Assembly: GCA_019894975.1 (NCBI GenBank)
Contig: JAGXNO010000003.1
Span: 32,001 to 96,000 of the forward strand
Direction of reading: 5' to 3'
Length of the DNA stretch: 64,000 bases
Origin: Promethearchaeota archaeon
GTDB lineage: Archaea; Asgardarchaeota; Lokiarchaeia; Sigyniarchaeales; SOKP01
This document shows positions 15,860 through 17,983 of this stretch, one piece after another. Under the pieces are notes generated by a model. It was not told where the DNA came from. It made no database searches and saw nothing but the letters and a program-made list of their open reading frames with translations. A program made the translations under genes and the position numbers. Position 1 is the first letter of the stretch. The number at the start of each line of letters is the position of its first letter.

Positions 15860-16963
15860 ATGCCTAATATTACATCTCTAATAACTCGGAGAATTAAGCC
15901 CATATGTGCAGTATGGGAAATTACGTTAAGATGTAATAGTAAATGTATTCATTGTGGCTCAAAAGCAGGAGAAAGTCGTTTTAATGAGTTGAATACCAAT
16001 GAAGCTTTAACATTAGTAAAAGAATTAAACGATTGTGGTTATAAAGGAGTTGCATTAATGGGCGGCGAACCGCTCATAAGGGAAGATTGGTCTAAAATTG
16101 CTAAAGAAATAAAAAGATATAAAATGGATTTATCAATTGTCACAAATGGATTAAATCTGATTAGGCAAAGTCATGATCTGAAAAGAGTAAAACCAGATTG
16201 CGTCAGCTTAAGTTTAGATGGAGGTACTCCAAAGACACATGATCATATTCGGGGATTTCAAGGATCATTTAAGAAAACACTTGAAGCTATTAATGTGTTA
16301 AAGGATTTAAAAATACCCACAAGTGTAATTACAAGTGTTAACAAAATTAATCTTAAGGAATTGAATCTAATTAAGAATTTACTTTTAGATAGAAGTATTG
16401 CTTGGCAAGTTCAAATCTGTGTTCCTATTGGACGATTTCCTAAAGAACTAGTTATAAACAGAGAAGAATTTTACACATTAGCATTATTTATAGCGATAAA
16501 TCAAAAAAAATATTCATCTCGAAGATTACCATTGATAGGAGCTCATTGTCTTGGGCATTTCTCAAGATTTTTGCCAAATTTAGGTTTAAGTCCATGGGTC
16601 GGATGCCAAGCAGGATTATCAGTATTAGGAATTCAAAGTAATGGAGATATTAAGGGATGCTTAACTCTTCCAGACGAATTTATTCAAGGGAATGTAAGAA
16701 CTCAGAGTTTAAAAGATATTTTAGAAAATTTAAGATCCAGAAAGAAACAGCTACCTCGTAAGTGTATTAATTGTGATGTAGTAAAATCATGTAGAGGCCA
16801 TTGTTTAGGAACTGCTTATGCACTTAAGGATTTTGAAGATCATTATTGTTTAAGAACTATTGAAAAAGAACTTTTTAATTTAGAACAACTATCAATTAGA
16901 GGAAAATTGGATTCAACTTACTCAAAATTTAAAAATTTTTATTATAATCTTATAATCAAATAA
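15860..16963 (+). CDS. Radical SAM/SPASM domain protein (putative peptide maturase)
   Basis: CNSKCIHC, GGEP, SPASM cysteines GCQAG...KGC...CINC.....CRGHC...C. Confidence 0.9.
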   Translation: MPNITSLITRRIKPICAVWEITLRCNSKCIHCGSKAGESRFNELNTNEALTLVKELNDCGYKGVALMGGEPLIREDWSKIAKEIKRYKMDLSIVTNGLNLIRQSHDLKRVKPDCVSLSLDGGTPKTHDHIRGFQGSFKKTLEAINVLKDLKIPTSVITSVNKINLKELNLIKNLLLDRSIAWQVQICVPIGRFPKELVINREEFYTLALFIAINQKKYSSRRLPLIGAHCLGHFSRFLPNLGLSPWVGCQAGLSVLGIQSNGDIKGCLTLPDEFIQGNVRTQSLKDILENLRSRKKQLPRKCINCDVVKSCRGHCLGTAYALKDFEDHYCLRTIEKELFNLEQLSIRGKLDSTYSKFKNFYYNLIIK

Positions 16964-16993: not shown

Positions 16994-17302
16994 TTGATTA
17001 AAGAATTATTTCAAATATATAAAATTGGTAAGGACCTAAATCTTTCTAAAAAAGAAATTAATGGATCTCTTTCTTTTAAAGAAGAATCTCATAAATTTAG
17101 AGATAGGATCATTTATTCGATAATTTTGCTGGTTCTGGTAATTTTAACGGGAGCTGTAATTTTTCTTGCCACTCAAATTGGAATAATTGAACCCATCACT
17201 ACTTCAGGTTCAAATACATATGGAGCAGATGGCGCAAGATATTCCACCATAAGGATAAAGGACTTTAAAAAAAAATTTAGATATTACATTCAAATAAAAT
17301 AA
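16994..17302 (+). CDS. Single-TM small protein, putative precursor peptide 1
   Basis: FQIYKIGKDLNLSKKEI leader, TM helix, TYGADGARYSTIRIKDFK. Confidence 0.75.
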   Translation: MIKELFQIYKIGKDLNLSKKEINGSLSFKEESHKFRDRIIYSIILLVLVILTGAVIFLATQIGIIEPITTSGSNTYGADGARYSTIRIKDFKKKFRYYIQIK

Positions 17303-17332
17303 TGTGTTGAAAAAGGAGGTGAAATTCTAAGT

Positions 17333-17587
17333 ATGATTAAAAATTCTTTTCATTTATTTCAAATTGGAAAGGAATTGGGATTAACTAAGAAAGAAATAAA
17401 AAATTTATCCCTGTTTGGAAATACTAAGCACCCATTCTTATATACGATCGTAATGATCGTATCAATTGTTGCATTTGGGATTTTAATAATTTTTTTAGGT
17501 ATACAAGCCTTTAGAAAGATATATCCCTCGGGAACATTATACTCAACAGTAAAGAAAGAGGATTTCAAACGAAATAAACAAATTTAA
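17333..17587 (+). CDS. Single-TM small protein, putative precursor peptide 2
   Basis: GGAGGTGA RBS; FHLFQIGKELGLTKKEI, TM, IYPSGTLYSTVKKEDFK. Confidence 0.8.
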   Translation: MIKNSFHLFQIGKELGLTKKEIKNLSLFGNTKHPFLYTIVMIVSIVAFGILIIFLGIQAFRKIYPSGTLYSTVKKEDFKRNKQI

Positions 17588-17688
17588 TTAAAAAAATTAA
17601 TAAGAAATTTAAAAGTGAATGCTCTTCTAAAATAAGAATAAATGTAAGATCAACTAAAAGGGTTGAAAAGAGAGGTGAAAACTAAAAA

Positions 17689-17934
17689 ATGTTCAAAGAT
17701 TTTTTTCAGTTATATCAAATTGGTAAAGATTTAGGTTTAACTAAGAAAGAAATAAAAGATTTTTCCCTATTTGGGAATACCAAGCACCCATTCTTATATT
17801 CGATTTTATTGGTTTTATCTATTATTGCAATTGGGATTTCAATAATTTTAGGTATATATATTGAAAGAAGTACATATGCCTCAGGATCGTATTACTCTAC
17901 AGTAAAAAAAAATGATTTCAAACTAAGAAAGTGA
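17689..17934 (+). CDS. Single-TM small protein, putative precursor peptide 3
   Basis: GAGGTGA RBS; FQLYQIGKDLGLTKKEI, TM, TYASGSYYSTVKKNDFK. Confidence 0.8.
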   Translation: MFKDFFQLYQIGKDLGLTKKEIKDFSLFGNTKHPFLYSILLVLSIIAIGISIILGIYIERSTYASGSYYSTVKKNDFKLRK

Positions 17935-17983
17935 ATTTAATTGAGAATTTAAGAAGAAATATCAATGTAAACCCTCTTAAAAA

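What the first reader, a model, noticed from the sequence alone, without database searches (positions are those of the whole stretch)
16994..17934. Tripartite architecture of the three small paralogues
Each has (i) a conserved leader F(Q/H)(I/L)(Y/F)(K/Q)IGK(D/E)L(G/N)L(T/S)KKEI, (ii) a divergent ~22-aa TM helix, and (iii) a conserved tail Y-x(2-3)-G-x-x-Y-S-T-(I/V)-(R/K)-x-x-D-F-K. Conservation at both ends around a variable TM suggests a docking site plus a modification site. The invariant tyrosines and Y-S-T fit aromatic crosslinking such as three-residue cyclophanes (speculative). Copies 2 and 3 also share upstream DNA (GTTGAAAA..GAGGTGAAA), indicating tandem duplication. Both termini are basic, so topology is ambiguous; if the TM is inserted, leader and core would be on opposite sides, implying modification before insertion.
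Basis: partly seen in the sequence, partly recalled or inferred. Interest (0 to 1): 0.78.

Follow-up and report, generated by a model that had tools for sequence, protein, structure and literature searches.

The report
Membrane-anchored substrates of archaeal splicease-like enzyme
Three small membrane proteins of an Asgard archaeon carry a docking helix and a tyrosine tail that the neighbouring radical-SAM enzyme, a relative of bacterial backbone-'splicing' enzymes, most likely edits chemically before they enter the membrane; the gene set is widespread in uncultured archaea and untested.

Summary
Observation confirmed. The three ORFs (102, 84, 81 aa) are real genes under purifying selection. 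Across 66 homologues the leader and tail are about 82% conserved per column and the TM helix 49%. They always sit beside one radical-SAM/SPASM enzyme and a methyltransferase-TPR gene; in the host family 53 of 134 genomes have both peptide and enzyme, 3 have only one. The enzyme belongs with the tyramine spliceases (PlpX model 191 bits; triceptide models 26 bits or less), so the cyclophane idea is unlikely. Relatives keep leader and tail with 0, 1, 2 or 3 TM helices between them, and soluble ones repeat the tail up to six times, so the tail is the core. At the second invariant Tyr most other lineages read X-Y-G, the splice motif; this Lokiarchaeia clade reads X-Y-S (68/68). The TM ends about 30 residues from the C-terminus, which fits editing before post-translational insertion. 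Best reading: a spliceotide-like system with membrane-anchored substrates (chemistry about 0.5). The scan had noted this cassette in at least 8 other genomes; I found no experimental report.

The parts
15860..16963 (+). Radical SAM/SPASM enzyme, 367 aa, splicease clade; the likely maturase
   Evidence: Pfam Radical_SAM + SPASM; best NCBIfam TIGR04103 192 bits, TIGR03913 160, TIGR04133 151, all below cut-off; trees; shared motifs
16994..17302 (+). Precursor copy 1, 102 aa: leader 17009-17059, TM about 17108-17173, tail 17219-17269; candidate site Arg82-Tyr83-Ser84 (Tyr codon 17240-17242). Its first tail Tyr is followed by Gly
   Evidence: own orthologue group in 4 genomes, 99/98
17306..17324 (+). 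Upstream element of copy 2, containing the Shine-Dalgarno GGAGGTGA
17333..17587 (+). Precursor copy 2, 84 aa: leader 17348-17398, TM about 17435-17503, tail 17522-17569; candidate site Leu69-Tyr70-Ser71 (Tyr codon 17540-17542)
17662..17680 (+). Upstream element of copy 3, containing the Shine-Dalgarno GAGGTGA
17689..17934 (+). Precursor copy 3, 81 aa: helix-turn-helix leader 17704-17754, TM about 17791-17862, tail 17875-17922; candidate site Tyr68-Tyr69-Ser70 (Tyr69 codon 17893-17895)
   Evidence: AF2 helices 2-14, 19-25, 34-62, coil over the Tyr motif
17984..19321 (+). 445-aa protein: class I SAM-methyltransferase fold (about aa 1-155) plus helical/TPR-like domain; constant partner gene
   Evidence: AF2 pLDDT 92; Foldseek top hits all class I methyltransferases, E about 4e-5, TM by target about 0.5; TPR_2; in 19/19 and 35/40 loci

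Best explanation
The three genes encode ribosomal substrates of the adjacent radical-SAM/SPASM enzyme, in a two-component spliceotide-like system with an added methyltransferase. (1) Each 81-102 aa chain leaves the ribosome with its TM helix barely exposed and stays in the cytosol briefly (inferred). (2) The helix-turn-helix leader docks on and activates the enzyme, as the RhaA leader helix does (inferred by analogy). (3) The enzyme acts at the second invariant Tyr of the tail (strong inference from conservation), most likely excising tyramine (-135 Da) and leaving an alpha-keto-beta-amide of the preceding residue: Arg, Leu, Tyr in copies 1-3 (inferred from enzyme family; this clade has Ser, not Gly, after the Tyr). 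(4) The methyltransferase-TPR protein binds the chain and methylates the product (weak inference). (5) The chain is inserted post-translationally N-in/C-out, displaying the edited tail outside the cell, plausibly as a tethered protease-inhibiting warhead (speculative). Shown here: architecture, selection, gene linkage, enzyme kinship, motif correspondence. Not shown: any binding, chemistry or topology.
For: Linkage: peptide 55/134 and enzyme 54/134 genomes of the host family, 53 shared, 78 with neither (kin are not independent); all 19 loci have the methyltransferase, 17 the enzyme. Kinship; PlpX is in IPR026482 (PMC11002830; equating it with TIGR04103 is my knowledge). Modularity: TM-less relatives keep leader and tail (leader hhalign E 1.8e-5) and repeat the tail up to 6 times; other Asgard lineages have 2-3 TMs and one C-terminal Y-G-[VT]-[YF]. 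Residue after the second Tyr: G29/A13/S1 in other one-TM lineages, G19/A4/S1 in soluble ones, G23 of 31 in multi-TM ones; the residue before it varies freely, as X of XYG does. The Y-S enzymes form one clade (100/100) among Y-G lineages. Leader-helix activation in binary spliceases: PMC11414181. TM end to C-terminus: median 30 aa, 40 or fewer in 68/70, against a tunnel covering 30-40 aa (PMC8745461). Net charge flanking the TM higher on the N side in 43/70 and 33/43.
Against: The defining XYG motif is absent at the aligned Tyr in this clade (Ser in 68/68), and every splice site in the papers I could read has Gly. The enzyme is far below the cut-offs of TIGR04103 (192 vs 725) and TIGR03913 (160 vs 592), and radical-SAM chemistry often changes at about 34% identity. 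A second invariant Tyr, mostly followed by Pro (54/65), and the constant methyltransferase have no counterpart in described spliceotides. No conserved protease or transporter is in the cassette. The charge bias in this clade is modest (16/70 opposite). SRP can be recruited from inside the tunnel (PMC8745461), so post-translational insertion is not forced.
Confidence: 0.5

Rival explanations
1. Same substrates and enzyme, but a different Tyr-centred reaction: the splicease-derived enzyme forms a crosslink between or from the two invariant tyrosines, or cleaves or truncates the backbone at the second Tyr, and the methyltransferase caps the product.
For: Two Tyr six residues apart with an invariant Gly in the one-TM and soluble groups; Ser replaces Gly after the Tyr; low scores on the splicease models; obligatory methyltransferase.
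Against: Multi-TM members have only one tail Tyr, in Y-G-[VT]; catalytic-region motifs are shared with bacterial spliceases; almost no enzyme position distinguishes the Y-S clade from Y-G relatives (2 conservative columns).
Confidence: 0.27
2. Triceptide-type three-residue cyclophane between Tyr and the Ser/Thr two residues later.
For: Position i+2 after the second Tyr is Thr or Ser in the one-TM and soluble groups; Tyr-based i to i+2 links exist (PMC11002830).
Against: No match to TIGR04496, 21 bits on TIGR04261, 26 bits on TIGR04269, against 191 on TIGR04103; the enzyme groups with spliceases; i+2 is Val in most multi-TM members.
Confidence: 0.06
3. The edited tail is released: the TM acts as an export signal or temporary anchor and a housekeeping protease frees a short modified peptide.
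For: Soluble relatives with repeated cores look like classical multi-core precursors; spliceotides are usually thought to be released (PMC10533398).
Against: A small-x-small signal-peptidase motif lies before the tail in only 16/65; no protease gene is conserved in the cassette; 2-3 TM versions are hard to explain as signals. This rival is compatible with the splicing chemistry.
Confidence: 0.2
4. The small proteins are not substrates but membrane adaptors that tether the enzyme pair, which acts on another target such as a lipid or glycan.
For: They look like ordinary single-pass membrane proteins; paralogue types are kept across species.
Against: The TM is dispensable in relatives, the tail is repeated in tandem in soluble forms, copy number varies from 1 to 7, and the nearest characterised enzymes modify peptides.
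Confidence: 0.1

Closest known systems
Binary (type II) spliceotide systems: RhaX/RhaA, RcsX/RcsA, RasX/RasA of Rheinheimera (PMC11414181, PMC11626197)
   Same: rSAM/SPASM enzyme of the splicease clade next to small precursors; no separate RRE/Y protein; helical leader; variable residue before a conserved Tyr.
   Different: Archaeal; TM helix between leader and core; X-Y-S instead of X-Y-G; a further invariant Tyr upstream; constant methyltransferase-TPR gene; leader of a family not in Pfam.
Type I spliceotides PlpX/PlpY/PlpA (TIGR04103, Nif11-type precursors)
   Same: Best-scoring family model for the enzyme (192 bits); shared active-region motifs; the multi-TM Asgard tails Y-G-V-F resemble the PlpA-derived tag in PMC10533398.
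   Different: Far below cut-off (725); no PlpY; leader not detectably related to Nif11 (hhalign probability 0.1%).
GDL-motif / DUF1843 radical-SAM trio systems (TIGR03913)
   Same: Second-best model; tandem trios of small paralogues next to the enzyme; their N-terminal Tyr is followed by Gly, Ala or Met, one locus has a methyltransferase.
   Different: Soluble 54-70 aa precursors with the Tyr near the N-terminus; no sequence similarity to these proteins; whether those Tyr are splice sites I could not check.
Triceptides (XncB, OscB, MscB, YxdB, YhhB)
   Same: SPASM enzyme plus small precursor with a conserved aromatic residue and Ser/Thr at i+2.
   Different: Different enzyme families (26 bits or less); soluble precursors with transporter or protease.

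Membership tests
Spliceotide (tyramine splicease system) | rSAM/SPASM enzyme homologous to PlpX, in the splicease clade | tested here: met
   Top three NCBIfam models; 99/99 clade with TIGR04103, GDL and TIGR04133 members, apart from MftC and AhbD-like; motifs
Spliceotide (tyramine splicease system) | Score above the curated cut-off of a described splicease family | tested here: not met
   192 vs 725 (TIGR04103), 160 vs 592, 151 vs 425; a true member scores 853
Spliceotide (tyramine splicease system) | Adjacent precursor with a conserved X-Y-G site | tested here: not met
   Aligned site is X-Y-S in 68/68 of this clade; Gly dominates in sister lineages. Copy 1 alone has T-Y-G at the first tail Tyr (5/65 in the clade)
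Spliceotide (tyramine splicease system) | Activating helix from a Y protein or from the leader | tested here: inconclusive
   No Y gene; conserved helical leader predicted; its role is by analogy to PMC11414181
Spliceotide (tyramine splicease system) | Loss of tyramine (-135.07 Da) giving an alpha-keto-beta-amide | not testable with these tools
   Needs co-expression and MS
Triceptide (three-residue cyclophane) | Enzyme of the XyeB, GrrM/OscB or FxsB/MscB families | tested here: not met
   No match, 21 and 26 bits; later families such as YhhB were not tested separately
Triceptide (three-residue cyclophane) | Conserved aromatic-x-acceptor motif (i, i+2) | tested here: inconclusive
   Y-x-[ST] is conserved in three groups but is Y-G-V in most multi-TM members
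Triceptide (three-residue cyclophane) | C-C crosslink (-2 Da) | not testable with these tools
   Needs MS and NMR
Known structural membrane-protein family | Significant profile or fold match, occurrence independent of the rSAM gene | tested here: not met
   No Pfam or NCBIfam hit near cut-off; no fold match; Atlas hits under 0.9; occurrence tied to the enzyme

The most novel reading that the evidence does not exclude
Asgard archaea and Thermoplasmatota run a dedicated pathway that rewrites the backbone of small membrane proteins before tail-anchored-style insertion, displaying a methylated beta-amino-ketoamide (or a new Tyr-derived group) on the cell surface; the Lokiarchaeia branch does so at a non-canonical X-Y-S site.
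Probability: 0.3. Interest if true: 0.85.

Novelty: new variant of a known kind. Interest (0 to 1): 0.62.

Why it matters
If true it would be backbone splicing, or a new radical Tyr chemistry, on integral membrane proteins in archaea close to the origin of eukaryotes. It would widen the splice motif from X-Y-G to X-Y-S, which matters for protein-engineering tags. The natural series of 0, 1, 2 and 3 TM helices between one leader and one core shows how a peptide-modification system became a membrane-protein modification system, and the soluble members give an easy first experiment. Tempering this: the chemistry is untested, the main survey paper (Scott et al. 2022, not held) may already list archaeal spliceases, and this scan has recorded the cassette in other genomes.

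Tried and rejected
Complex prediction of enzyme plus copy 3 with clusters and SAM gave no answer (score 0.02); it is not used either way. Expression: one RNA run had two short contigs on the enzyme gene and none on the small genes; this shows neither transcription nor its absence. Nif11 kinship of the leader: not detected. Signal-peptidase site: not conserved. Enzyme residues specific to the Y-S clade: only two conservative columns. Promoter and terminator scan: at chance level and bacterial-type. PDB sequence search found only generic rSAM folds. Atlas and Foldseek searches of the peptide were uninformative. Scott et al. 2022 could not be read; searches for Asgard or archaeal splicease papers found none on this system. 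MscL and the MoxR/VWA genes nearby are local neighbours, not cassette parts. Two ArsA/Get3-like genes exist in the genome, but I did not test whether they are Get3-like, so they are not counted as support.

Full report
Observation. The window lies in an Asgard (Promethearchaeota/Lokiarchaeia-type) genome, judged from the titles of related loci. Three co-oriented ORFs of 102, 84 and 81 aa lie at 16994-17934 between a radical-SAM/SPASM gene (15860-16963) and a 445-aa gene (17984-19321). Seventy database homologues exist. In a 66-row alignment both tail tyrosines, the Gly between them and the terminal Phe are invariant. Column identity is 0.81 in the leader, 0.49 in the TM and 0.84 in the tail (permutation p 5e-5). 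All regions are under purifying selection, weakest in the TM (dN/dS 0.18, 0.35, 0.16). AF2 gives a helix-turn-helix leader, one long TM helix and a coil over the Tyr motif. The upstream 19-mer is unique to copies 2 and 3 and part of a 193-nt, 81% repeat, but its core is the Shine-Dalgarno sequence. Copies 2 and 3 each have an orthologue in another species, in a different order, so the duplication is old and the paralogue types are maintained.

Gene context. All 19 loci found with the peptides carry the 445-aa partner and 17 the enzyme. In 400 Asgard genomes the peptide profile hit 79 and the enzyme 103. Within the host family the pattern is patchy but joint: 53 have both, 78 neither, 3 only one; kin are not independent, so I give no statistic. 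The partner has a class I methyltransferase fold plus a helical/TPR region. No protease or transporter is conserved in the cassette.

The enzyme. Its best family models are TIGR04103, TIGR03913 and TIGR04133, all below cut-off. PlpX, the tyramine splicease, is in IPR026482 (PMC11002830), which from my own knowledge is TIGR04103. A tree places the archaeal enzymes with members of these families at 99/99, apart from MftC and AhbD-like proteins, and they share the WQxQ, GCxAG and PYC-region motifs. Triceptide models give no match, 21 and 26 bits, against 191 for TIGR04103. The cyclophane suggestion is therefore unlikely.

What the three parts are. Following the enzyme to other lineages dissects the architecture. 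Relatives from a Thermoplasmatales genome and similar contigs have the same leader and tail with no TM; some repeat the tail up to six times or duplicate leader plus tail. Other Asgard lineages have an extended N-terminus and one TM, or two to three TMs and a single C-terminal Y-G-[VT]-[YF], with up to seven tandem paralogues. A profile search found 216 clusters at 50% identity. So leader and Tyr tail are the ancient functional parts, and the TM is an exchangeable spacer and anchor. After the second Tyr, Gly dominates in all other groups (29/43, 19/24, 23/31) while this clade has Ser in 68/68; the residue before the Tyr varies (counts include close kin). That is the X-Y-G splice motif of PMC11414181 with one change. 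The enzymes of the Y-S clade are monophyletic (100/100) among Y-G lineages with the root on bacterial spliceases, which suggests that Y-S is derived; deeper branches are unresolved, so the order of TM gain or loss is not known.

Topology. Net charge flanking the TM is higher on the N side in 43/70 of this clade (16 opposite) and 33/43 of the sister one-TM group, favouring N-in/C-out, which puts leader and tail on opposite sides. The TM ends a median 30 residues from the C-terminus (40 or fewer in 68/70). The ribosomal tunnel covers 30-40 residues (PMC8745461) and such late helices are targeted after translation (PMC6593721). Both odd and even TM numbers occur in the family, which also argues that final sidedness does not matter to the enzyme. 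This is inference; SRP recruitment from within the tunnel is known.

Mechanism. Most likely the leader helix docks on and activates the enzyme, as in the binary Rha system; the enzyme excises tyramine at the second Tyr to give a ketoamide of Arg, Leu or Tyr; the methyltransferase-TPR protein holds and methylates the chain; and the protein is inserted with the edited tail outside. I put the substrate role at about 0.88, the second Tyr as target at about 0.75, and splicing chemistry overall at about 0.5. Ketoamide spliceotides inhibit proteases (PMC9811515), so a tethered inhibitor is plausible but speculative. The main rival is another Tyr-centred reaction by a splicease-derived enzyme (0.27).

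Comparison and novelty. It works like a binary spliceotide system but fails two membership tests (family cut-off; X-Y-G at the aligned site), so I do not file it as a spliceotide. I found no paper on this cassette, but Scott et al. 2022 was not available and PMC11626197 mentions spliceotide clusters in archaeal genomes. I formed the splicease reading before consulting the scan's notes; those notes record the same cassette in at least 8 other genomes and are not independent support. What this locus adds is the clade-wide X-Y-S variant, the 0-3 TM series and the tail-length argument. Verdict: new variant of a known kind, interest 0.62.

Noticed in passing
window 23697-24060: 364-nt, 96% identical copy of the middle of the methyltransferase-TPR gene (18741-19104), giving a 132-aa orphan ORF at 23663-24061 next to the thiolase 3' end.
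   Followed up: partly
L003 8528-9124; also L004, L005, L006, L010, L012, L088-L090: An unannotated multi-TM protein of about 200 aa follows the last precursor in many Lokiarchaeia loci but is absent from this genome; no Pfam hit. In L089 it appears fused to a Tyr tail, but across an assembly gap, so probably an artefact.
   Followed up: partly
L023, L025, L037, L038, L039: Loci with soluble precursors often carry two enzymes of the clade and B12-dependent radical-SAM genes nearby, possibly further tailoring.
   Followed up: no
L092 5024-5218: An Asgard locus has the enzyme and methyltransferase with a 65-aa soluble, Pro-rich peptide ending in a Y-G-V-Y motif and lacking the usual leader.
   Followed up: no
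L026 2495-3649 (Agathobacter rectalis plasmid record): The closest bacterial relative of the archaeal enzyme clade in my trees sits beside tuf and an MFS transporter with no evident small precursor (long branch, placement unsure).
   Followed up: no
window 17275-17974: One low-depth contig in run X5 joins across copies 2 and 3, as a relative with only copy 1 would; may come from another organism.
   Followed up: no
genome contig C44 15768-16811: Another SPASM enzyme of this genome scores 89-131 bits on the triceptide models, below cut-off.
   Followed up: no
L071 5566-6631: In G003 the enzyme gene is split into pieces while the precursors and methyltransferase are present.
   Followed up: no
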